DNA of 64,000 bases from Sphyrna mokarran. Lineage: Eukaryota. Where the stretch lies: positions 25,916,001 through 25,980,000 of the forward strand of contig JAGIQG010000013.1 in the NCBI GenBank assembly GCA_024679065.1. The letters are read 5' to 3'. A program made the position numbers and the translations under genes. The notes under the pieces were generated by a model. The model did no database searches, had not been told where the DNA came from, and saw nothing but the letters and a program-made list of their open reading frames with translations. Positions 9,371 through 64,000 of this stretch are shown piece after piece. Position 1 is the first letter of the stretch; each line of letters begins with the position of its first letter.

Positions 9371-10097
9371 CTTGTCTACCTAATACGTTGCAAGAAAGGA
9401 TGTCCCGAAGCATGGTACATTGGGGAGACCATGCAGACACTACGACAGCGGATGAATGAGCATCGCTCAACAATCACCAGGCAAAACAGTTCCCTTCCTG
9501 TGGGCGAACACTTCAGCAGTCATGGGCATTCGGCCTCCGACCTGCGGGTAAATGTTCTTCAAGGGGGCCTTCGTGACACACGACAGCGCAGAGTCGCTGA
9601 GCAGAGACTGATAGCCAAGTTCCGCACACATGAGGACGGTCTTAATAGAGATCTTGGCTTCATGACACACTATCTGTAACCCCCGTAACTTGCCTGGGTT
9701 AGCAAAAAACCTCACTTACTGTGCTGTCTGGAGAAAATACACAATTCTCTAACCAATGCTCAGGATTCCCTTCACACACATTGTTAGCCACTTTAACACT
9801 TGAATAGCAGGTTAGATGTAAGGATTCGCATTCTAATCAGCAATCTGTGACTGTCTGTGTTGATATGTGTGCGATTGCAGACCAGAACACTGCGTTTGCC
9901 TGACGAAGGCACAAGAGTGTCGAAACTTACATTAAGACTGCAATGATGTTACCGTGAAAATCCCTTAGTTGTCGAACTCCAGCGCCTGCTTTACTCGCAG
10001 ATTTACTATCAAATAAATCGGTTGGATTTAAAATTGGTGTTGCTAAATTCTTACAGAGTTCTTACCACCCCAATCCAACACTGGCATCTCTACATCA
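9371..10097 (+). mobile_element. Penelope-like element 3' fragment (GIY-YIG C-terminus + 3' pLTR) inserted into a V-SINE
   Basis: VYLIRC...WYIGET...LRQRMNEH...VGEHF...GH...AEQRLI...GLN is a GIY-YIG endonuclease; TSD tgtcctggt/tgttctggt at 9362-9370 and 10098-10106. Confidence 0.88.
9900..9926 (+). ncRNA. Minimal hammerhead ribozyme core in the Penelope pLTR (3' side disrupted)
   Basis: CUGACGA-A, stem II GGCAC/GUGUC with an AAGA loop, then GAAAC. Confidence 0.6.
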
Positions 10098-10410
10098 TGT
10101 TCTGGTTTCCTCCAGTGATTTGCAGATTAGATACATTGGCCATGCTGAATCCTCCCTCAGTGTATCCAAGCAGGCACCGGAGTTCGACAACTAAGGGATT
10201 TTCACGGTAACGTCATTGCAGTCTTAATGTAAGTTTAATTGTGACTAATAAATAAACTACTCCACAAGAATATTAGGTCAAATTCAATAATAATTTCCCT
10301 CAGTAAAATCCAGATTTACAGAAGATATTTTAATAATCCTTATGTCTGCAGAAATACTTTTTGGAATGCCTACTATTCTGTGACACCAGTGTGCTTTTTT
10401 TTTGACACAG

Positions 10411-17823: not shown

Positions 17824-18128
17824 GGGTAGCATGGTAAGACAGTGGTTAGCACTACTACCTCACAGTGCCAGGGATCTGGGTTCGATTCCCGGCTTGGGTC
17901 ACTGTCTGTGTGGATTTTGCACACTCTCCCCTTGTTTGCGTGGGTTTCTTCCAGGTACTCCAGTTTCCTCCCACAGTCTAAAAGACTCGCTGGTTGGTGC
18001 ATTGACCATGCTAAATTCTCCCTTAGTGTATTCAAGCAGGCGCTGGAGTGTGACAACTAGAGATTTTCACATTAACTTCATTGCAGTATTAATGTAAGCC
18101 CGCTTTTGACACTAATAAATAAACTTTA
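17824..18128 (+). mobile_element. Full-length V-domain (HE1-like) tRNA SINE, tail type A
   Basis: A/B-box head (ggtaagacagtggttagc...ggttcgattcc), V core tgggtttcttccaggtactccagtttcctcccaca, tail ttcattgcagtattaatgtaagc...aataaataaacttt. Confidence 0.85.
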
Positions 18129-18361
18129 AGCTGAAAATTTAAGGCACTAGATTGCATGTGTGCGTATTGCTGGGTTATCCTTTCAGATAAAGTTACAAGC
18201 TTTTGCTTTCGAATCCATTCAGAATCACAATTTAAATAAATTTTATCCAGTGTTTAATAGCTACTACCAAGCATTCCTTGACTTTACCTTATGTTCTCCT
18301 GCGACATTTAATCTCCCTGGGGGTAACCATGAAGTGTTGCATGCTTTTGTTTCCTCCCTAG

Positions 18362-22557: not shown

Positions 22558-24205
22558 AGAACAAAGAAAATTACAGTATAGGAACAGGCCCTTTGGCTCT
22601 CCAAGCCTGCACCAACCATGCTGCCTGGCTTAACTAAAATCCCCGACCCTTCCGGGGACCATATCCCTCTATTCCATCCTATTCATGTATTTGTCAAGAT
22701 GCCCCTTATAAGCCACTATCCTATCTTCTTCCACGACCTCCCCCGGCAGCGAGTTCCAGTCAGTCACCACCCTCTGCGTAAAAAAAAATCTACCTCGTAC
22801 ATTTTCTTTAAACTCTGCCCCTCAAACCTTAAACCTATGTCCCCTACTAATTGACTCTTCCACCCTGGGAAAAAACTTCTGACTATCCACTCTGTCCCTG
22901 CCTGTCATAATCTTGTAGACTTCTATCAGGTCGTTCCTCAACCTCTGTCATTCCAGTGAGAACAAACCGAGTTTCTCCAATCTCTCTTCATAGCTAATGT
23001 CCTCCATGCCAGGCAACATCGTGGTAAATCTTTTCTGTACCTTCTCCAAAACCTCCACATCTTTCTGGTAGTGTGGCGACCAGAATTGATTACTATATTC
23101 CAAGTGCAGCCTATCTAAGGTTCTATAAAGCTGCAACATGACTTGCCAATTTTTAAACTCAGTGCCCTGGCCACTGAATGCAAGCATGCCATATGCCTTC
23201 TTGACACACCTTTTCCACCTGCATTGCTGTTTTCAGTGACATGTACATCCAGATTCCTCTGCCTATCAATACTCTTAAGGGTTCTGCCATTTACTGTATA
23301 TTTCCTGTCTGTATTAAACCTTCCAAAATGCATTATCTCACGTTTGTCTGGATTAAACTCCATCTCTGTCCAAATCTCCAACTGGTTTATATCTTGCTGC
23401 ATTCTTTGATAGTCCTCATCGCTATCCACAAATCCACCAAACTGTGTCATCTGCAAACTTACTAATCAAACTAGTTACATTTACCTCCAAATCATTTATA
23501 TATATTACAAACAGCAAAGGTCCCAGAACTGATCCCTGAGGAACGCCACTTGTCACAGCCCTCCATTCAGAAATGCACCCTTCCACTGCTACCGTGTCTT
23601 TGGCCAAGTAAGAAGTCTCACAACACCAGGTTAAAGTCCAACAGGTTTATTTGGTAGTAAACACCTCTAGCTTTTGGGGTTTGCCCCTTCATCAGGGAAA
23701 AGAGCAAACCCCAAAAGCTAGTGGCGTTTACTACCAAATAAACCTGTTGGACTTTAACGTGGTGTTGTGAGACTTCTTACTGTGTTTATTCCAGTCCAAC
23801 GCCAGCATCTCCACACCATGACCTCTTTGACTGAGGCAGTTTTGTGTCCAGCTTGCCAGGTCACCTCTGATCCCATGTGACTCCATCTTCTGTAACAATC
23901 TGCCGTAAGAGACCTTGCCTGTCCCTTTATTGAAAACCATGTAGACAACATCCACTGCCGTATCCTCATCAATCATCATCACTTCCTCGAAAAACTCGAT
24001 CAAGTTAGTGAGACACGACCTCCCCTTCACAAAATCATGTTGCCTTTCACTAATATGTCCACTTAATTCCAAGCGGGAATAAATCCTGTCTCGAAGAATC
24101 CTCTCCAATAATTTCCCTACCACTGATGTAAGGCTCACTGGCCTGTAGTTACCTGGATTGTTCTTGCTACCATTATTAAACAAAAGAACAACATTGGCTA
24201 TTCTC
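22558..24205 (-). mobile_element. CR1 LINE 3' portion, degraded, split by a Penelope insertion
   Basis: Frameshifted ORF pieces [43 protein letters not shown]; aagaacaaagaa tail. Confidence 0.9.
23607..23819. mobile_element. Inverted-repeat Penelope pLTR pair inserted in a CR1 fragment
   Basis: 23607-23690 is the reverse complement of 23697-23781; it shares aaataaacctgttggactttaacctggtgttg with the 3' end of the 9371-10097 element; ctgatga core on - at 23689-23695. Confidence 0.8.
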
Positions 24206-31467: not shown

Positions 31468-31692
31468 TTTGAACGGTTTGGTTCAGATACAACTAATTCA
31501 GCACCGTTGAAAGGTGTTTCGTTCTGCAGCCTTCTAATGGGTCTGTATGAAATGGGAGCCAGCAGCCTCCTAAATGATGAAGTAAAAGAAGATTTGAAGC
31601 AGGCGATTACAAAACTGCATCTCTGCGATCTAGTTCTGGCCGTGAAGCAGGTGATGTTGTACATCCGAAGCTCCGTGGAGAACTTTCCAAAA
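31468..31692 (+). CDS. URB1: URB1 exon 12
   Basis: ccacag|TTT GAA...CCA AAA|gtgagt; ...AVKQVMLYIRSSVENFPK. Confidence 0.88.
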
Positions 31693-33442
31693 GTGAGTGC
31701 GGTATTTGTTACCAGGACAACTAGGGAAAAGAATGTGTTTAGATCCAGAGATTATCTGTCCATTTAATGTTACAATAACTTCCCTGCAGTATCTTACACC
31801 AGGCCTGCCTTGAAAATAAAAAATATGAAATGTTGGATGTATTCGGCAAGCCAGGCAGCATTGGAGTTATTTTTTCAGGTCTAACATTAACTCTGTTTAT
31901 CTTCCCACAGGTGCTGCCTGACCTGTTGAGCATTTCCATCGTTTCCTGGTTATATCTCAGATTTTCAGCATCCATAGCATTTTACTTTTGTATTACTGCT
32001 TACTTCCAATAGGAAAAGCGGATCACCCCTTGGTTTTGCTTATTTTAAAGCGTGCCACATGATTTTCTTTTGAAAGCATTCTGCTCTCAAATCAAAAGTT
32101 GCAAGAAATGCTGATATAGTTGATTTGTTTAAGAGAAATATTGGAAATTCAAATGCAAAATTATATTATTTACTATATCCTGGGCATAAATATTGCTGAT
32201 AAAGTAATTGTTCTACTTGGAGTACCAGTGTTTGAAAGACACTGTATAAAATGCAAATTCTTTCTATTAAAAATAGTTTCACATGAGGCTCAAAGGGCCA
32301 AATGTACTCCTCCTCCTCCTATCTTTCATGTTTCTATGAAATGTCTGCCTGTCTTCTATGTCTAGTGACATATCTCCTATCTTTAAAATACATTTCTCAA
32401 AACCCTTTTGACATGGCCCTAAAGAAAATGCAGCACTTTCCACAATATCACCTTTGGCACTTTGACTTTCAGTGACATTTTTAGTTCTTTCCTGCTCAGT
32501 ATGATTAGAACTATCTATTCACAATGGGGAGTGAATGCAGAAGACACCACAATCATTTAGACCAGACAGTGTGGTCCAGTAAATCTTATCCTGTTGATCA
32601 TTTGTTGTGTGTTCATTACATAAAACAGATAATAGCAAACAGTCAGTTTGGATTTACACTTGGAACTCTGAGGTGACACACTGCATCATTCAATCCAGCC
32701 ATGTGCTAGCAATTGATTGTGAAAATTCATTATTTTTTCTACAAGGCATTCTTTGGATTTTTAAGAATTTTGTTTTTAATCATTGCTCCTGTGATTTTGT
32801 GCTCATTAGTATTTGACTATTCATATGTTGAAGTCGCCCAAAACAGCATCTCTGTAAGTAGTGCAGCCTGCCATTGGTCTTGTGATTCTTTACTGTGCTG
32901 GACCAGAACTTCAAGAATTTGTCAATTATCTCAAAACAATGTTATCACTCCTGAAAATGTTCCATACTTTAAGTCTTTAAGCAACACAGCACGGGAAACA
33001 GGCCCTTCGGCCCAACGAGCCCGCGCCGCCGTCATACTATATAGTAGCAAATACATTATCCTATTTTAATATTCCTATATAATAGTATATATATTATTCC
33101 TAATATGGAAAATTTTCACCATAGGGACAATTTGTTTCCCAATCAGCCTAAGAGCGAATTTTTGGGTTGTGGGAGGAAACCGGAGTGCCCGGAGAAAACC
33201 CACGCAACCACGGGGAGAACGCGCAAACTCCCGCAGACACCGGCCCAATTCCAAGTGTCTGCACAGCCACATCGATAGTCTCTGAGCTGTCATGGTGCCC
33301 TTCAGATGGTCCACATAAAGCACTCATTTACGACATGAGGTACCAGGCAACCCATGAATCAACATCCAAGAGCTGTACCCGCACCACCTGCCGAATGCGT
33401 GCTCAAATTATGGACCGAATTACCTGTGGAAAAAAGCCGTAG

Positions 33443-36349
33443 TTAAACAGTCCTAATATATCCCTCTATCTGCATACCGCTCATGTGGCTGTCCAAGAGA
33501 CCCTTAAACAGCCCCAGCGTGCCTGCTCCCACCACCTTACTCGGCAGTGCATTCCACACCCCCACTACCCTTTGTGTGAAAAACTGCCCTCTAATATTCG
33601 TCCTATACATAGCCCCCCTCACCCTATGGCCATGACCCCTCGTCCTATCCATTTCTAAAGGTGGAAAAAGTTTACCTCCATTTACTCTATCTATACCCCT
33701 TATAATCTTATACACCTCTATGAGATCCCCTCTAAGCCGACGTCTTTCAAGGGAAAACAACCCCAGTCTATCTAATCGTTCCTCATAAGACAGTCCTTCC
33801 ATACCAGGCAGCATCCTGGTAAACCTCCTCTGCACTCTCTCCAAGGACTCCACATCCTTCCGATAGTACGGAGACCAGAACTGGGCGCAGTATTCCAAGT
33901 GAGGCCTAACCAAAGTTGTATACAACTGCAACATCAAACTCCTACTCTTATATTCTATACCCTTTTCTATGAAAGCTAACATACTATACGCCTTCTTTGT
34001 CACCTTCTCCACCTGTGAGGACACCTTCAGAGACTTGTGAACCTGCACCCCCAAGTCTCTCTGCGTCTCTATGCTCCGTATAGTTTTACCTTTTATCCTA
34101 TAATTCTCTTCTACATTTTTCCGGCCAAAATGCATCACCTCGCATTTTTCCGGATTAAATTCCATTTGCCATCTATCTGCCCAGTCTACCAACCTGTCTA
34201 TGTCCTGTTGTATTGCCTGACACTGCTCTTCTGTACCCGCCAATCCAAGCATCTTGGTGTCATCAGCAAATTTGCTGATCTCACCACCTACCCCTACTTC
34301 CAAGTCGTTTATGTAGACCACAAATAGAAGAGGACCTAGTACTGAGCCTTGTGGCACTCCACTAGTGACAGGCTTCCAGCCGGAAAAAGAGCCTTCCACT
34401 ACTACCCTCTGTCTCCTCCTCCCGAGCCAGTTCTCGACCCATCTACATACCCGACCCTGTATCCCATGCGCCTTCACCTTCTCTATCAGTCTACCATGAG
34501 GAACCTTGTCAAACGCCTTACTGAAATCCATGTAGACGACATCAACAGCATGTCCTTCATCAACTGTTTTTGTCACTTCTTCAAAAAATTCCACTAGATT
34601 TGTAAGACAAGACTTCCCCTTGACGAAGCCATGCTGCGTATCCCTGATCAGATCGCAGCGCTCCAGATGCTCATACATCCTGTCCCTAAGGATCCTCTCC
34701 ATTAGCTTACCTATAACTGAAGTCAAGCTCACCGGCCTATAGTTCCCTGGGTGATCCCTCTGACCTTTTTTAAACAACCGTACTACGTTTGCTATCCTCC
34801 AGTCCTCTGGGACCTCACCTGTGTCCAAGGAAGAGACAAAGATTTGCGTCAGAGGCCCAGCCAAGTCTTCCCTCAACTCCCTTAGCAGCCTGGGGTAAAT
34901 GCCATCAGGCCCCGGAGCTTTATATGTCTTTAAGCTGCCTAACAGCCCCAACACCTCTTTCCTCGTAATCCTTATTTCCCTCAACCGATCCTCAACTTTG
35001 TCAACATCAGGCACAGACATCTGTCCAGTCTCCTGCGTGAATACCGACGCAAAGTATTCATTCAGGATCTCCCCCATTCCCTCAGGCTCTAAGCATAGAT
35101 CCCCTCCTCTGTCCCTAAGAGGTCCAATCTTGCCTCTAACCATCCTTTTGCTCCTTACATAGGTGTAAAATGCCTTTGGATTTTCCTTTATCCTACCTGC
35201 CAGAGCCACCTCGTGGCCCCTTTTTGCCTTTCTAATACCCCTTTTAAGATCCCGTCTACACTCTCTATAAGCTTCCAGCGCTGTCTCAGTCCCTAGTTGC
35301 CTAGATCTAATGTAAGCCTCTTTCTTTTTCTTGATCAAGTCCTCAATCTCCCTGGTAAGCCAAGGTTCTCTAATCCTACCTTTCCCATCCTTCCTCCTTG
35401 CCGGCACGTATCTTTCCTGCAGAGAGTTTAGTTTTCCCTTGAAAGACTCCCACATGTACCTCGTCGACCTGCCCTCAAAAAGCTTATTCCAGTCGGTATC
35501 TTTAAGATCTTGCCTAATCTGGCCGTATCTAGCCCTCCCCCAGTTAAATACCCTCCCTTTTAGGCCAGTCTCGTCCTTTTCCATTAATATCCTAAAGCAG
35601 ACAGAGTTGTGATCACTATTTGACACCTGCTCTCCTACCTCGACGTCAACCACCTGGCCTGGCTCATTCCCCAGAACCAAATCCAGTATAGCCCCCTCTC
35701 TAGTCGGGCCATCCACATACTGCTCCAAGGACCCTTCCAAAACACACTGTACAAATTCCTCCCCATCCACTCCTACAGCCCTGGGCACACTCCAATCTAC
35801 TCCAGGAAAATTGAAATCTCCCACTACTACCACCCTATTTTTCCTACACTTATCTAAAATGTCCCTGCATATCCCTTCTTCCGCAGCCTGCGGGCTGTTG
35901 GGCGGTCTGTAGTAAACACCCAACAGTGTAACCACTCCCTTCCTATTCCTCAACTCCACCCATAGAGACTCAATTCCTAAATCATCCATACCTCCCTCCC
36001 TCTGCACTGCTATGACGTTGTCCTTAACTAATAAAGCCACTCCCCCGCCTCTCTTCACACCAACTCTGTCACACCTAAAACACTTATACCCTGGAATATT
36101 CAATTGCCAGTCTTGCCCCTCCTTCAACCACGTCTCGGTCACCGCCACCACGTCTAAACTCCTCGTGAACATTATTGCCTTCAGTTCATCTGTTTTGCTA
36201 GTCACACTCCTCGCATTAAAACACGTGCACTGAAGACCCTCAGCTCTCGGATATTCCTTTCTACCTACTGGTGTTACCCTATCATCCCTCTCTCTCCCAC
36301 TCCCAGTTCCCGTTGTCTCCCCACCCTCCCTCCCTATTAGTTTAAACAT
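33443..36349 (-). CDS. CR1 ORF2, APE endonuclease + reverse transcriptase, intact (968 aa)
   Basis: EN motifs FNARS, VTETW, GVYYRPP, GDFN, LDLVL, SDHN; RT motifs [44 protein letters not shown]; no internal stop. Confidence 0.95.
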   Translation of the reverse strand: MFKLIGREGGETTGTGSGRERDDRVTPVGRKEYPRAEGLQCTCFNARSVTSKTDELKAIMFTRSLDVVAVTETWLKEGQDWQLNIPGYKCFRCDRVGVKRGGGVALLVKDNVIAVQREGGMDDLGIESLWVELRNRKGVVTLLGVYYRPPNSPQAAEEGICRDILDKCRKNRVVVVGDFNFPGVDWSVPRAVGVDGEEFVQCVLEGSLEQYVDGPTREGAILDLVLGNEPGQVVDVEVGEQVSNSDHNSVCFRILMEKDETGLKGRVFNWGRARYGQIRQDLKDTDWNKLFEGRSTRYMWESFKGKLNSLQERYVPARRKDGKGRIREPWLTREIEDLIKKKKEAYIRSRQLGTETALEAYRECRRDLKRGIRKAKRGHEVALAGRIKENPKAFYTYVRSKRMVRGKIGPLRDRGGDLCLEPEGMGEILNEYFASVFTQETGQMSVPDVDKVEDRLREIRITRKEVLGLLGSLKTYKAPGPDGIYPRLLRELREDLAGPLTQIFVSSLDTGEVPEDWRIANVVRLFKKGQRDHPGNYRPVSLTSVIGKLMERILRDRMYEHLERCDLIRDTQHGFVKGKSCLTNLVEFFEEVTKTVDEGHAVDVVYMDFSKAFDKVPHGRLIEKVKAHGIQGRVCRWVENWLGRRRQRVVVEGSFSGWKPVTSGVPQGSVLGPLLFVVYINDLEVGVGGEISKFADDTKMLGLAGTEEQCQAIQQDIDRLVDWADRWQMEFNPEKCEVMHFGRKNVEENYRIKGKTIRSIETQRDLGVQVHKSLKVSSQVEKVTKKAYSMLAFIEKGIEYKSRSLMLQLYTTLVRPHLEYCAQFWSPYYRKDVESLERVQRRFTRMLPGMEGLSYEERLDRLGLFSLERRRLRGDLIEVYKIIRGIDRVNGGKLFPPLEMDRTRGHGHRVRGAMYRTNIRGQFFTQRVVGVWNALPSKVVGAGTLGLFKGLLDSHMSGMQIEGYIRTV

Positions 36350-36508
36350 TTCTGAAACACTCCAGCTAACCTCCCAGCTAAAATATGTGTTCCCCTCCCA
36401 GTCAACTGCTCCCTATCCCTCGTGAATAGGTGACCCTCCCTCCTGAAGACTTCCCAATGATCAATAAATATGAAGCCTTCTGCCCTACACCAATCCCTCA
36501 TCCATGCA
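36337..36508 (-). pseudogene. CR1 ORF1 C-terminal remnant (SGNH esterase-like)
   Basis: WMRDWCRAEGFIFIDHW...LTGRGTHILAGRL...LN* resembles the CR1 ORF1 esterase tail; cut by the 5' truncation. Confidence 0.8.
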
Positions 36509-36662
36509 TCCATACTTAGCAATTTTGGTAATAATTCTGAGGAATGAGTAGGAGCCGAAGAATAATTACTTAATTAAGTAACCATTTTGTAATTCCTTTA
36601 CAGATACAGTTTGTATTTTTAAATCATCCTTCAACTTGTTATTAATCTGTTTGTTGTTTCAG

Positions 36663-36839
36663 TTGGAACGAGGCACTGGATTAGCACTGATCGAACTATT
36701 TATGGATCTCTTAAAATTGTTGTTACGGAGATGTGAACAGATTGATGATACCATTGAGAATAAATTTATTAATGAAGGTGAAACTGAGCTTTTCATTGAC
36801 CTTGATTCCATTACGGATGGAGAACTAATGAAGGATCAG
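36663..36839 (+). CDS. URB1: URB1 exon 13
   Basis: tttcag|TTG GAA CGA...GAT CAG|gtaatc; LERGTGLALIELFMDLLKLLLRRCEQ...ELFIDLDS. Confidence 0.88.
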
Positions 36840-36949
36840 GTAATCCCTCAGTGTACTTTGTTCTGTTTCTACATTGAGACTTTCACGCCCTATGGTTAAA
36901 GTGGAATTTTCCACATGTTGAAGAGGCCCAAAATAGCATCTCTGACCAG

Positions 36950-37305: not shown

Positions 37306-37909
37306 GTAAATTTTCAGGTTGTTCTCACCAGCGGAATCTTTCAGTCCCACTGATGGCAACATCTGCTGTGGGTTTCCTGGCAGGTGGTACATTGAACAGG
37401 AAAACCTGGCGACAGCACCAGCCATTCTTGGGCGAGGGTGTGCCTCTGCCAGGAAGGAAGCCACATGGGCACACAGAAATTCCCGCCCTCTATCTGTAGT
37501 GCAGGCTATGAATGATCTCATTCGAGGCATGATTTATGTCATATGAGAGTATTCTTTTGAGAATGTATGTTTTAAGATCGTGGCTCTGTTTGTATTGTTT
37601 TTCTTGCTAACTTTTTCCTGTCTAAACCTTTGCTGAATTCTTGTGGAAATGTAAAGGCAAATTGCCCTATTTGACCACAGGGAAGTCTTAATTGTTGCTC
37701 ATCTTGACCCCACCCAGTATTCAGAAACATGAACATTATCAAGACTTGCAGGATAATCATTTGGAAACCTAGTTGATTTTCTTTCCACTACCAATCTAGA
37801 GGTTTTGGGCTCAAGGCCTTCATTATTTCTCTAACTAAGATGATCTAACTGAACAAACTTGATAATAAAACCTGGAGCATCGTTGGTATGAGTTAAGGAA
37901 GAAAGAGGT

Positions 37910-38890
37910 CATTGAGGTTTACAGCATGGAAACAGGCCTTTCAGCCTAACTTGTCCATGCTGCCCTTTTTTTAAACCTCTAAGCTAGCCCCAATTGCTTG
38001 CATTTGGCCCATATCCTTATATACCCATCTTATCCACATAACTGTCTAAAGTTTTTTAAAAGACAAAATTGTACCTGCCTCTATTTCTACCTCTAGCTGC
38101 TTGTCCCACTCACTACCCTCTGTGTGAAAAAATTTCCTGTCTGGACTCTTGTATCTCTCACTTTAAACCTAGGCTCTCTAGTTTTAGACTCCCCTACCTT
38201 TGGGAAATGTCTATGTGATCAATGTCCCTCATTATTTTATAGACCTTTTTAGGATCACCCGTCAGCCTTCCACACTCCAGAGAAAATAGTCCCAGTCTAT
38301 CCAGCCTCTCCTTATAACTCAAACCATCAAGTCCCAGTAGCAACCTAGTAAATCTCTTCTCACTCTTTCTAGTTTAATAATATCCTTTTTATAATAAGGT
38401 GAACAGAACTGTACACAGTATTCCAAGTGTGGCGTTACCAATGTTTTGTACAACTTCAACAAAACATCCTGACTCCTGTAATCAGTGTTCTGACCAATGA
38501 AACCAAGCATGCTGAATGCTTCTTCACCACTCTGTCCACCTGTGCCTTCACTTTCAAGGAGCTATGAACCTGAAACCCTAGATCTCTTTGTTCTGTAACT
38601 CTCCCCACCACCCTACCATTAACTGCCTTGCCCTGTTCAATCTACCAAAATATATCATCTCGCATTTATCTAAATTAAATTCCATCTGCCATTCATCAGC
38701 CCACTGACTCAATTGATCAACATCCCGCTGCAATCCGAGATAATCTTCTTCACGGTCCATTATGCCACCGTCTTGGTGTCATCTGCAAACTAACTAATCA
38801 TGCCTCCTGTATTCTCATCCAAATCATTAATATAAATGACATATAACAGTGGACCGAGCACCAATCCCTGAGGCACACTGCTAGTCACTG
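37910..38890 (-). mobile_element. CR1 LINE 3' fragment
   Basis: WQMEFNLDKCE, PHLEYCVQF; 3' terminal motif near 37925-37965. Confidence 0.88.
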
Positions 38891-51393: not shown

Positions 51394-51738
51394 TGATGTG
51401 GAGATGCTGGCATTAGACTGGGGTAAACACAGAAAGAAGTCTCACAATGCCAGGTTAAAGTCCAACCAGTTTGATAGTAAACCCTTTCGGGAATGCTGTA
51501 CCACATCTCTTTAACCTATGCTTAAGGCTATCTTCATTCACATTGTCTGCACCTTGAAGGCTTGAACAGCAGGTTAGCTGTAAAGAGTTGCATTCTAATC
51601 AGTGTTCTGTAAACTGTGTGCGCCTTTATATACCCTTCTGTGATCAGAACTTTCCATGCACTTGACGAATGATCAGCTTGTAGGCTTACTATCAAATAAA
51701 CTGGTTGGACTTTAACCTGGTGTTGTGAGATTTCTTAC
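51394..51738. mobile_element. Penelope pLTR with inverted partial copy
   Basis: 10-bp TSD tggctactta at 51384-51393 and 51739-51748; homologous to 9740-10097. Confidence 0.82.
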
Positions 51739-52152
51739 TGGCTACTTAGGGCAGGGTACTCTGCAGCCCCCAGAAGGGCTCACAAGAAGATTTCAAGGAA
51801 TCCACCAAACATGTTAATCAGATAAAAGTTACCCTCGTTTGGAAATGAGGATAGCAAATGAGCAAGGCCTGAGCAACAGCATACGTGATCTTTCCATTGA
51901 TGCCATAGCACTATACAGACTGTGACTGTCCACATCCCCACTTAGATGCGGCCCATTCTTCTGGTCTTGGCACTAAACGTGACACCATGGTTCACATTAT
52001 CTCAGCTGGGGGAGTGGTGGAGGACAGCTGCTAATTTGAGATTCCCAGCCACAGGAAACGACCTCCAAGTATACACCACTTGGTCAAGTCCATTAAGAAT
52101 TTACACGAGATCACCTTTCATTGTTCTAAATTGAAGGGAAGAGAGGCCTGAC

Positions 52153-54391: not shown

Positions 54392-54703
54392 GGATGGCAT
54401 GGTAGCACAGTGGTTGGCACTGATGCCTCACAACGCCAAGGACTGGGTTTGATTTCCATTTTGGGTCACTGTCTGTGTGTAATTTGCATTTCCTCCCGTA
54501 GCTGTGTGGGTTTCCTCCAGATACTCCGGTTTCTTTCCACAGTCCAAAGATGTGTGGGTTAGGTGGATTGGCCATGCTAAATTGCTCCTTAGTGTCAGGG
54601 GGATTAGCATGGCTATATGCATGGGATTAGGGCCTGGATAGGATTGTGGTCGGTGCAGACTTTACGGGTCAAATGGCCTCCTTTCGCACTATAGGGATTC
54701 TAT
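54392..54703 (+). mobile_element. V-SINE, tail B
   Basis: Head, V core, gtcggtgcagac...ggcctcc...agggattctatg. Confidence 0.8.
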
Positions 54704-55680
54704 GTAACACTTGTCAGAGTAAAAACCTTTGAAACTTCTCTGAGAGATAGCATTAAAATGGATGTCATTAATATACAAAAAAGATGTGCCTGTCGGTTCA
54801 ATGTTTCGTGCATTTGTTGCAAAGAGTTCTTATTTTTGTAGAAGTCTGTGTTGGAGGGAAGAGATGGCGTAGTGGTATTATCGCTGGACTATAAATCCAG
54901 AAACTCAGCCAATGTTCTGGGAGGATTTTCCTGGTGTATTTTTGGGATACACCCCCCAGCACAACACCAGGAGCCAGCAAGTTACTGGCCAATGAGTTTC
55001 AACCCTAACCAATGATGTTGAGGTCCAAGTGCGGGGATATAACTCTACTTTGTAATTTGTTCCATAATTGCATCCCTGATTCTGAGAATCTGCCGAAAGA
55101 TAGTTCAGTATTTGTCTTTTAACCAAATCTGTTGCATTAAGTAAATGGAGAATCGCATTTATACGTTCAAAATTGTAATTCAGTGTTGAAACCACAAGTT
55201 AGGGGAACAATTGCAGAAAAAGAAATTAAGACAGTTTAACACATATCAGAATATCAGCTATTTAGCTGCATCAGAATGATTTGTACAGTTTCTCCAATTC
55301 ACTTTCTAAATGCATCTTGGTGCATTGTTTTAAACTGTTGTGTTCATTGGTTGAGATGGCAAACAGCCAAACTTTATCGAAACCATTGTGAAATTTGAAG
55401 TTATGAAAGGAAGAGTGAGGCTTCATTGCTATGAATTTCAGCTAAGTGCTTGTGCCCTTCTGTTCTGTGACGTAATATCATCAATATGCTACACTGCGTG
55501 AAGTCTGGATCAAAACAAAATGCAGTCACATGCAAGACGGGCTCAAATCATCAATTTTCTCTCCTGGAATTCAGAAACAGCCTTGTCTGTTTTAATGAAA
55601 GTCTCTGTTCGCAGAATGAGATGAGTGTATGCAGAGTGCGTCATTTCCATTCTGTGGAAAATGAATTAACTTCTGATCCT

Positions 55681-61925: not shown

Positions 61926-62744
61926 ACATAGAACATTACAGCGCAGTACAGGCCCTTCGGCCCTCGATGTTGCACCGGCCAGTGGACCCTCTAACCTAAA
62001 CTATTCCAATATCATCCATATGCCTATCCACCGACCATTTGAATGCCCCCAAAGTAGGCGAGTCTGCAACTGCTGCAGGCAGGGCATTCCACGCCCTCAC
62101 CACCCTCTGTGTAAAGAACCTGGCTCTGACATCCATCCTATAACTACCACCTCTTAATTTAAAGTTATGTCCCCTCGTGTTGGTCATCCCCATCCGAGGA
62201 AAAAGGCTCTCACTATCCACCCTATCCAGTCCTTTGATCATCTTATACACCTCAATTGGGTCACCGCGTAACTTTCTTCTCTCTAATGAAAATAACCTCA
62301 GCCTTTCCTCATAAGGCCTTCCCACCATACCAGGCAACATCCTGGTAAACCTCCTCTGCACCCTTTCCAATGCTTCCACATCTTTCTTATAATGCGGCGA
62401 CCAGAACTGTACGCAATACTCCAAGTGCGGCCGCACCAGAGTTTTGTACAGTTGTAACATAACCTCACGGCTCCTAAATTCAATCCCTCTAACAATAAAA
62501 GCTAACACACCGTACGCCTTCTTAACAACTTTATCAACCTGGGTGCCAACTTTCAAAGAGCTATGTACTTGTACCCCAAGATCCCTCTGCTCGACAACAC
62601 TATTAAGAGTCCTTCCATTAGCCCTATATTTCATATGCCTGTTATTCCTACCATATTGAATTCCATTTGCCACCTCGCGGCCCAGCTCTGCAACCTATCT
62701 ATGTCCCTTTGCAAACTGTAACATCCATCCTCGCTGTCTACAGC
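61926..62744 (-). mobile_element. CR1 LINE 3' fragment, fairly young
   Basis: 225-aa ORF2 C-terminus with small in-frame deletions; TSD tgagata at 61919-61925 and 62745-62751. Confidence 0.9.
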
Positions 62745-62767: not shown

Positions 62768-62910
62768 GTAAGAAGCCTCTCAACACCAGGTTAAAATCCA
62801 ACAGGTTTATTTGAAATTACTAGTGTTCGGAGTGCTGCTCCTTCATTAGGTAAGTAGAGAGGTGTTCACAAGCATGGCATATATAGACAGCAACACAATT
62901 GCAAGATAAT
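62768..62910 (-). mobile_element. Penelope pLTR fragment with mutated hammerhead core
   Basis: On -: cctaatgaaggagcagcactccgaac...aaataaacctgttggattttaacctggtgttg. Confidence 0.7.
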
Positions 62911-63322
62911 CTTTTGTTCAAAATCAGGCGAGTCGTGGGGAGGTGGGTGGTATGGAGGATAGACATTTATTATCAAAATACCTTGCCTGTGCGGCCTCTT
63001 ATGATCACATACCTTCCCCACTTATCCTTCACAGGCACATTCTTATGAAGTAAAACCGCAACCTCTCAGCTAGTAGTCAAAATTGAGTCAAAAATCACCT
63101 GCCTCACTTCAATTTCAGGTGCTCCTTATCATGGAACTATGGAAACTACAGTGTAGGAGGAGGCCATTTGACCCATTGAGTCTACATCAACTCTGAAAAA
63201 ATCTTACCCACACCAATCTCTCTCCCCTATCCCTATGGCTCTCTTCATTTACAATCGCTAATCCATCTGATTTACACATCATTGAACACAGGGGGCAATT
63301 TAGCATTTAACCTGCACATCTA

Positions 63323-64000
63323 TTATAAAAAGAATATTATTAAACTAGAAAGTATGCGAAGAGATTTACTAGCATACTGCTGGGACTCGTTGGTTTGATT
63401 TGTAAGGAGAGACCTCATAGACTGGGACTTTTTTCTCTGGAGCATAGGAGGCTTAAGAGTGATCTTATAGATGTCTATAAAATAATGACAGGCATAATCA
63501 GCTGGATAGTCAATATCTTTCGCAAAGGTAGGGGAGTGTAAAACTGGCAAGCATAGGTTTAGGTGAGAGGGGAGAGATAGAAAAGGGTCCAGAGGGGAAG
63601 ATTTTTCACACATAGGGCAATGAATGTCTGAAATGAGCTGCCTGATGTAGTAGTAGAGACAGGTTCAATTTTACCTTTTGAAAAGCATTTAGACAGTTAA
63701 ATGGATAAGATTGGTGTAGAGGCATATGGGTCAAATGTGTGCGGCTTGAATTGATTGACCATGACAAATTGTCTCTTAATGTCAGGGGGATTAGGAGAAT
63801 TGATGTATGGGGTTGCAGAGATGGAACAGGATCTGTGTGGGATTGTTGTTGATGGAGGCTCGATGGACCAAGTGGTCCTCTTCTGCATTGTAGATTCTAT
63901 GATTCTGTGAAACACAGGCAATTGGAACTAGCTTAGTGATAAAAACTGGATGGCATGGACAAGTTGTGCCAAAGGCCATGCTGTAAACCTCTACGATTCT
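63323..64000 (+). mobile_element. CR1 3' end with a 5'-truncated V-SINE tail (63738-63908) inserted in its UTR
   Basis: GLFSLE/DLIDVYKIM-like remnants, same family as 37910-38890; SINE tail ctgcattgtagattctatgattct. Confidence 0.75.

What the first reader, a model, noticed from the sequence alone, without database searches (positions are those of the whole stretch)
32970..33442. Autonomous CR1 LINE whose 3' UTR contains a V-SINE core domain and extended hairpins
Seen: the UTR is about 470 nt, much longer than in the CR1 at 61926 (about 70 nt). It contains the V-domain (gagtttgcgcgttctccccgtggttgcgtgggttttctccgggcactccggtttcctcccaca, about 33168-33232) but no tRNA head, no second tail and no internal TSD. 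It also carries a long stem (ggtccataa..gagcac / gtgctttatgtggacc), a perfect gcagacac/gtgtctgc hairpin and an AT-rich block. One TSD encloses the whole element, so it moved as a unit. Inference: either the LINE captured a SINE's 3' half by template switching, or the V-domain is a native LINE UTR module, which would bear on the origin and function of that domain.
Basis: partly seen in the sequence, partly recalled or inferred. Interest (0 to 1): 0.7.

Follow-up and report, generated by a model that had tools for sequence, protein, structure and literature searches.

The report
Shark LINE carrying a captured SINE
A young jumping gene (a CR1 LINE) in shark-like DNA carries, in its untranslated tail, the remains of a short parasitic repeat (a V-SINE) with a well-preserved core but an apparently dead promoter, which matters because such cores have been reported never to occur in LINEs.

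Summary
The anatomy is real. A 3.5-kb minus-strand CR1 (32970-36508) with an unbroken ORF2 lies inside one 9-bp TSD; its 473-nt 3' UTR matches V-SINEs over 33248-33122 (E 4e-22). Three corrections. (1) This copy is 5'-truncated inside ORF1, so it is not autonomous itself. (2) One TSD does not exclude a one-off chimera made at integration. (3) 'No tRNA head' is probably wrong: a decayed head lacking its B box lies colinearly at 33298-33249 (P about 0.002 in one test, 0.03-0.04 in a second, no signal in a third). That points SINE-to-LINE, against a native LINE module. The V part keeps 6 of 6 ancestral CpGs (local SINEs 19 of 79) yet is 21% diverged, and a 42-bp rod upstream has 8 G-U and 0 A-C pairs, so the UTR most likely evolved in an active master lineage (0.7). 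A second family copy was not obtained, so family status is inferred, not shown. Closest precedent: the headless V-SINE in MER6. Nine paper searches and seven look-ups in this scan's notes showed no V-bearing LINE; Repbase/Dfam could not be checked.

The parts
36509..36517 (-). 5' copy of the 9-bp target-site duplication
   Evidence: sits exactly where ORF1 homology begins; chance 98/20000
36337..36507 (-). 3' remnant of ORF1 (56 codons plus stop), C-terminal part of an SGNH esterase domain; marks the 5' truncation point
   Evidence: translation; best PDB hit 4C1B 'ORF1-encoded protein' residues 119-165, E 0.017; no Pfam hit, so weak
33443..36412 (-). ORF2, stop to stop 989 codons (first Met at 36349): AP endonuclease + reverse transcriptase, unbroken
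   Evidence: (PF03372 E 2.5e-13, PF14529, PF00078 E 7.1e-34), motifs; best relatives 58-68% identical
32970..33442 (-). 473-nt 3' UTR
   Evidence: whole-UTR fold z -3.53
33308..33416 (-). unbranched 42-bp RNA rod, 8 G-U pairs and no A-C mismatch (sense-strand bias); origin unknown
   Evidence: binomial P 0.004; no Rfam match at E<=5
33249..33298 (-). probable decayed tRNA-derived SINE head: first ~50 nt kept (22 of 40 identical to the majority head, 10 of 18 mismatches transitions), the ~19 nt with the B box missing
   Evidence: top of 6994 positions in the element; 4 of 113772 in SINE-masked window; 125 of 3000 shuffles, 88 of 3022 real pieces; no signal against 4 single copies
33233..33262 (-). 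perfect 8-bp hairpin joining the head remnant to the start of the V region
   Evidence: 0.14 expected per 470 nt by chance; z -2.45 sense, -3.5 antisense
33163..33248 (-). V-domain core
   Evidence: 68 of 78 (87%) identical to the CpG-restored majority of 14 window SINE copies over 33240-33163; homology starts at 33248
33122..33162 (-). post-core V-SINE body, more diverged
   Evidence: 26 of 41 (63%); Fisher P 0.004 against the core
33041..33121 (-). AT-rich block in the place of the SINE's linker; no detectable homology
   Evidence: 20% GC; 0 of 5 SINE linkers/tails tested score above shuffles
32986..33029 (-). CR1-type terminal stem-loop (ORF2p recognition handle)
   Evidence: covariation over 12 LINE and SINE tails: 87.7% cells paired, 12 two-sided changes, 0 of 500 shuffles; slid controls 41-48%
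32967..32980 (-). tail of about 1.75 copies of an 8-nt unit, last 3 nt shared with the TSD
   Evidence: read from sequence
32961..32969 (-). 3' copy of the TSD
63733..63910 (+). internal control, not part of the element: 5'-truncated CR1-tailed V-SINE nested in the short UTR of an older CR1, with its own tail and the LINE UTR resuming after it
   Evidence: (E 2.7e-7)

Best explanation
This is a recent, 5'-truncated genomic copy of a CR1 lineage whose master long ago captured a whole V-SINE at its 3' end. Steps: (1, shown) the copy has EN+RT ORF2, a CR1 terminal stem-loop, short tail repeats and a TSD; (2, established knowledge for stringent LINEs) ORF2p grips the terminal stem-loop and reverse-transcribes from the tail at the nicked target, so all that lies between stop codon and stem-loop is carried along; (3, inferred) a CR1-tailed (HE1-type) V-SINE was joined to the LINE UTR, either by the RT finishing a SINE RNA and jumping onto the LINE RNA, or by insertion into a master's UTR followed by collapse of the two homologous tails, leaving one tail and no internal TSD; (4, inferred) the Pol III promoter was then lost (B box deleted, A-box part decayed), which stops the passenger from being transcribed as a rival SINE; (5, inferred) the lineage kept replicating, which is why the V part is both diverged and CpG-fresh; the rod upstream is a selected RNA structure of this lineage, most likely a double-stranded-RNA protein-binding or compaction element for RNP assembly (guess, 0.4). 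The V core most likely rides along as a passenger (about 0.65) but may be selected (about 0.35).
For: Unbroken 989-codon frame means very little change since insertion (my estimate under assumed stop/indel rates: about 1% or less), yet V differs from the local SINE majority at 25 of 119 sites and the head at 18 of 40: this divergence predates the insertion. V keeps 6 of 6 ancestral CpGs against 19 of 79 in 14 SINE copies (P 2e-4), so it is not an old genomic SINE. A SINE without a B box cannot be transcribed by Pol III (established knowledge), so it is unlikely to be a fresh SINE RNA. Rod with 8 G-U and 0 A-C shows selection on this UTR as sense RNA. Nested SINE at 63.7-63.9 kb shows what a one-off insertion looks like (own tail, LINE UTR resumes); those marks are absent here. 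3 of 5 diagnostic sites and a weak tree node (84/85) side with CR1-tailed V-SINEs. 26% of the 31-mers of a 4-kb stretch are held by a run under a second organism label, 43% by a second study of the same label (unlaid, part unknown).
Against: No second copy with this UTR was seen: 0 in the window, 0 of 37 fetched loci, all from other families at 63% identity or less. The head remnant was first noticed by eye and is supported at P 0.002, 0.03-0.04 and not at all in three tests. V-SINE families naturally differ in head and post-core while sharing the core, so the module pattern may be inherited from an unsampled donor family. The terminal stem-loop is no closer to local CR1-tailed SINE tails (43-52%) than to other CR1 tails (43-67%), and the AT block has no SINE homology, so the colinear 'SINE tail became LINE tail' step is unproven.
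Confidence: 0.7

Rival explanations
1. One-off chimera made at this integration: reverse transcription began on the RNA of a young, unsampled V-SINE family or non-autonomous derivative (V + AT block + CR1 tail) and switched to the LINE RNA; the family itself has no V.
For: Gives one TSD, one tail and CpG-fresh V, as seen. Chimeric LINE insertions with small RNAs and Alu under one TSD are known for L1 (10.1101/2025.02.02.635956, abstract). V-SINEs are abundant here (20 profile hits in 64 kb).
Against: The donor would lack a B box; no window SINE has the AT block or this tail; the UTR upstream of V is already long, structured and lacks a terminal motif.
Confidence: 0.17
2. Change at this locus after insertion: a SINE piece inserted into, or converted, the UTR of the genomic copy.
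For: It happened to another CR1 in this window (63.7-63.9 kb).
Against: No internal TSD or second tail; the copy is too young for a tail and TSD to have decayed; V is CpG-fresh unlike all 14 local copies.
Confidence: 0.05
3. The V domain is a native CR1 3' UTR module and this lineage preserves the ancestral source of V-SINE bodies.
For: Long branch of the LINE's V (0.27 against 0.13-0.19 for 10 of 13 SINE rows); LINE origin of SINE bodies is a published hypothesis (PMC5786205).
Against: Colinear tRNA-head remnant; 5 of 5 other CR1 ends in the window and one related 3' end (L036) have short UTRs without V; the LINE's V falls among host SINEs, with the CR1-tailed group; V is far older, reaching cnidarians (PMC4824008, PMC5804259, passages).
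Confidence: 0.05

Closest known systems
MER6/MER6A (Tc1/Mariner MITE of mammals carrying an Ac1-like V-SINE; PMC6887750, read parts 1-3 of 5)
   Same: A V-SINE body captured by another class of mobile element, head lost, spread by the host element
   Different: There the carrier is a non-coding DNA transposon and the SINE tail is kept; here the carrier is a protein-coding retrotransposon whose RNA must carry V through every cycle, and a decayed head seems to remain
HER1 LINE / HE1 V-SINE pair of sharks and rays (listed in PMC3747384 table and PMC4824008 passages; original papers not held)
   Same: CR1-type LINE and V-SINE sharing a 3' stem-loop tail in elasmobranchs
   Different: Known flow is LINE tail into SINE; here SINE head remnant and body sit in the LINE. 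HER1 identity could not be tested (no reference sequence available)
L1 chimeric insertions with U6, other small RNAs and Alu (10.1101/2025.02.02.635956, abstract and outline)
   Same: LINE and foreign RNA joined under one TSD
   Different: Mostly single insertions in a relaxed-type LINE; here the foreign part is inside the 3' UTR, upstream of a stringent recognition stem, and looks lineage-evolved
Stringent LINEs ZfL2-1/ZfL2-2 (PMC4176376, abstract)
   Same: ORF2p recognises a 3' stem-loop; ORF1 esterase (PDB 4C1B hit; that 4C1B is ZfL2-1 is recalled)
   Different: L2 clade, no SINE body reported in the abstract seen

Membership tests
CR1-group LINE | ORF2 with AP endonuclease and reverse transcriptase | tested here: met
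   Pfam PF03372, PF14529, PF00078 above cut-offs; catalytic motifs present
CR1-group LINE | ORF2 closest to vertebrate CR1-type RTs | tested here: inconclusive
   Named top hits are bird, turtle, Xenopus, Scyliorhinus and Mobula RT proteins at 37-68%; none is labelled CR1 and no clade tree with named references was built; clade name rests on recalled knowledge
CR1-group LINE | ORF1 with SGNH esterase domain | tested here: inconclusive
   56-codon remnant, PDB 4C1B E 0.017; no Pfam or database hit
CR1-group LINE | Conserved 3' stem-loop followed by short tandem repeat tail | tested here: met
   8-nt tail unit read from sequence
Autonomous (full-length) LINE copy | 5' UTR/promoter and complete ORF1 | tested here: not met
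   TSD abuts the ORF1 remnant at 36508
V-SINE | V domain (80-120 bp central domain) | tested here: met
V-SINE | tRNA-derived head with working A and B boxes | tested here: not met
   no A or B box by pattern; decayed remnant without B box
V-SINE (independent insertion) | own tail repeat and own TSD | tested here: not met
   contrast the nested SINE at 63.7-63.9 kb
Multi-copy chimeric LINE family | two or more independent insertions sharing the chimeric UTR | tested here: inconclusive
   no family copy was among the window or the 37 loci; no host genome held
HER1 | sequence identity to HER1 | not testable with these tools
   no Repbase/Dfam or GenBank eukaryote nucleotide search available

The most novel reading that the evidence does not exclude
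An active elasmobranch CR1 family has domesticated the V domain: after capturing a V-SINE it lost the Pol III promoter and let the flanks drift but kept the core under selection, because V improves RNA stability, RNP assembly or LINE-SINE template switching. It would be the first SINE highly conserved domain working inside a protein-coding LINE, and would let the V domain's function be read out in a standard retrotransposition assay.
Probability: 0.25. Interest if true: 0.8.

Novelty: new variant of a known kind. Interest (0 to 1): 0.52.

Why it matters
Why SINE central domains stay conserved for hundreds of millions of years is open. [quoted passage not shown] A V-bearing CR1 family would be a counter-example, would give V-SINEs a homologous landing site on a LINE RNA, and would allow per-module selection tests and deletion assays. 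It probably does not explain the origin of V, since the flow appears to be SINE to LINE.

Tried and rejected
Family copies sought by protein: metagenome scan, 19 loci from 152 candidates, 28-51% identity; GTDB scan, 3 loci from 105; viral scan, 5 loci from 129, 24-26%; two contaminated prokaryote assemblies, 15 matches, 32-64%. None is this family; 0 of 37 loci match the SINE profile convincingly (best E 0.87). No host genome is held. No reads or contigs were laid on the UTR, so the 23 runs cannot be assigned to ORF2 or UTR; the 20 rows flagged as small shares are not used as evidence. Rfam: 0 hits in the window at gathering, 0 in 33245-33450 at E<=5. Alternative 11-bp TSD at 36963-36953 rejected: it lies in the tail of an older CR1 and would enclose a probable host exon. 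The 8-bp hairpin and AT block are not treated as significant structures; V itself does not fold better than shuffles (z 0.07). Local alignments of the upstream UTR to 4 single SINE heads gave nothing (130-206 of 300 shuffles as high). S9.2k was left out of the tree as truncated (14 rows used). ORF1 remnant and host exons: no Pfam, database or Atlas identification. Paper searches without a V-bearing LINE; Ogiwara 2002 not held; Ogiwara 1999 seen only as a citation; supplements of the papers were not read and Repbase/Dfam entries may already contain this family.

Full report
Setting. The window is rich in tRNA-headed SINEs (20 profile hits in 64 kb) and CR1 fragments. The nearest named relatives of the ORF2 include Scyliorhinus and Mobula proteins, so I take the host to be a shark or ray; this is inference. 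No host genome is held.

The element. On the minus strand a frame of 989 codons runs unbroken from 36412 to 33443 and carries AP endonuclease and RT domains with their motifs. Just upstream, 56 codons in another frame resemble the C-terminal part of a LINE ORF1 esterase (PDB 4C1B, E 0.017; no support). A 9-bp duplication sits at 36517-36509, exactly where that homology starts, and at 32969-32961, overlapping the last 3 nt of an 8-nt tail repeat (chance 98 of 20000). A rival 11-bp match further up lies in an older CR1 tail and would enclose a probable host exon, so it is rejected. The copy is therefore 3.5 kb, 5'-truncated and young. 'Autonomous' applies to its parent only.

The UTR. It is 473 nt: 430 nt from stop to terminal motif, against 33 in the CR1 at 62 kb. 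5 of 5 other CR1 ends that carry the terminal motif have no V match in their UTR. In order: (a) a 42-bp unbranched rod, 33416-33308, z -4.96 with 0 of 200 shuffles, much weaker on the opposite strand, with 8 G-U pairs and no A-C mismatch (P 0.004), stable in context. The window was chosen after the stem was seen and the best of 47 ORF windows reached -3.6, but the strand bias is hard to get without selection on the sense RNA. No Rfam match. (b) V-SINE homology 33248-33122, E 4.1e-22 against a profile of 14 window copies that excluded this UTR: core 68 of 78, post-core 26 of 41 against the CpG-restored majority (Fisher P 0.004), whereas SINE copies are even (81% and 78%). (c) an AT block without homology or fold. 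(d) a CR1 terminal stem-loop that covaries across 12 LINE and SINE tails (12 two-sided changes, 0 of 500 shuffles; slid controls 41-48% paired against 88%; related sequences can inflate this). The 8-bp hairpin is real but near chance level (0.14 per 470 nt).

A head remnant. The alignment placed UTR sequence against the SINE head. A matrix built from 11 SINE heads aligned without the LINE scores 33298-33259 highest of 6994 positions in the element (22 of 40 identities, 10 of 18 mismatches transitions); 4 of 113772 positions in the SINE-masked window score as high, about P 0.002 for the expected zone. A gapped global test is weaker (125 of 3000 shuffles; 88 of 3022 real pieces), and local alignments to 4 single copies showed nothing. 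The remnant spans 50 nt where the SINE head has 69; the missing part holds the B box. I put its reality at about 0.75. It makes the captured piece a whole SINE with a dead promoter, and it sets the direction SINE to LINE.

Family or one-off. One TSD shows only that the parts arrived together; a template switch during this integration would do the same. The better arguments are these. The frame is unbroken, so the copy has changed little since insertion (my estimate with assumed rates: about 1% or less), yet V differs from the local SINE majority at 25 of 119 sites. V keeps 6 of 6 ancestral CpGs against 19 of 79 in the SINE copies (P 2e-4), so it is no old genomic SINE. A B-box-less SINE should not be transcribed on its own. 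The window also supplies a control: the older CR1 at 63.3-64.0 kb has a 5'-truncated CR1-tailed V-SINE nested in its UTR, with its own tail, and the LINE UTR resumes behind it; none of that is seen here. Together these favour long residence in a replicating CR1 lineage (0.7). Against: no second copy was obtained (0 in the window; 0 of 37 loci, all other families). Near-identical sequence occurs in a second study (43% of words) and under a second organism label (26%), but which part of the 4 kb they hold is open. An unsampled young V-SINE family could also explain the module-wise divergence, since V-SINE families share cores and differ elsewhere.

Donor. 3 of 5 diagnostic sites side with the CR1-tailed SINE group, 1 with the other, 1 with neither; the tree agrees weakly (84/85, 14 rows). 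The terminal stem is not closer to local SINE tails (43-52%) than to CR1 tails (43-67%), so whether the SINE's tail replaced the LINE's is undecided.

How it works. By analogy with stringent LINEs (PMC4176376, abstract), ORF2p binds the terminal stem-loop and primes at the tail, so upstream UTR content is copied along. Capture came either from RT running off a full SINE RNA onto the LINE RNA, or from insertion and collapse of two homologous tails. Promoter loss followed. V is more likely a passenger (0.65) than selected (0.35); the rod is probably a selected protein-binding or compaction element, which is a guess.

What is known. V is an 80-120 bp domain found from cnidarians to vertebrates (PMC4824008 passages; PMC6887750 parts 1-3 of 5; PMC4758252 passages). 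Its one non-SINE carrier in the papers I saw is MER6, a DNA transposon with a headless V-SINE. [quoted passage not shown] HE1/HER1 are listed in PMC3747384 (table passage). PMC5499810 and PMC11481361 (passages) showed no V-bearing LINE in what I saw. Nine searches found none either, but the library lacks most subscription papers, supplements were not read, and Repbase/Dfam were not available. This scan's notes hold no look-alike; two unchecked notes describe the opposite mosaic, tRNA-headed LINEs, in other genomes.

Verdict. A real SINE-in-LINE chimera, probably a lineage feature, new as a variant of CR1 and analogous to MER6. It does not support a LINE origin of V. Interest 0.52; 0.8 if the V core proves selected in the LINE.

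Noticed in passing
window 63321-64000 (+): Older CR1 with a 5'-truncated CR1-tailed V-SINE (63733-63910) nested in its short 3' UTR; the UTR resumes at about 63910 and matches the CR1 at 37905-38040. A second truncated V-SINE lies on the minus strand at 63141-63321.
   Followed up: yes
window about 31485-31693 and 36663-36840 (+): Two probable host-gene exons (AG...GT bounded open frames); the CR1 lies antisense in the intron between them. Gene not identified.
   Followed up: partly
window 36337-36507 (-): The ORF1 remnant has Gln where the aligned 4C1B chain has His in the Asp-x-x-His motif, so esterase activity may be lost in this copy or family.
   Followed up: no
V-SINE copies across the window (e.g. 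17827-18135, 54396-54708): The V-SINEs share head and core but fall into two tail types, one CR1-like (4 copies aligned) and one other (9 copies), a local example of tail exchange.
   Followed up: partly
L021, L029-L037 (handle G001); P0002: A bacterial type-strain assembly holds 14 CR1-like matches on short contigs, most at 47-64% identity to this ORF2, and the best protein hit (68%) is filed under Carnobacterium maltaromaticum: vertebrate DNA contamination in public bacterial assemblies.
   Followed up: partly
window 9923-10236: 69-bp inverted repeat at 96% identity (9923-9991 / 10168-10236) made of V-SINE 3' parts.
   Followed up: no
window 23607-23819, 51430-51740, 62768-62814: Several copies of another short repeat end, one apparently interrupting the CR1 at 22.6-24.2 kb.
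   Followed up: no
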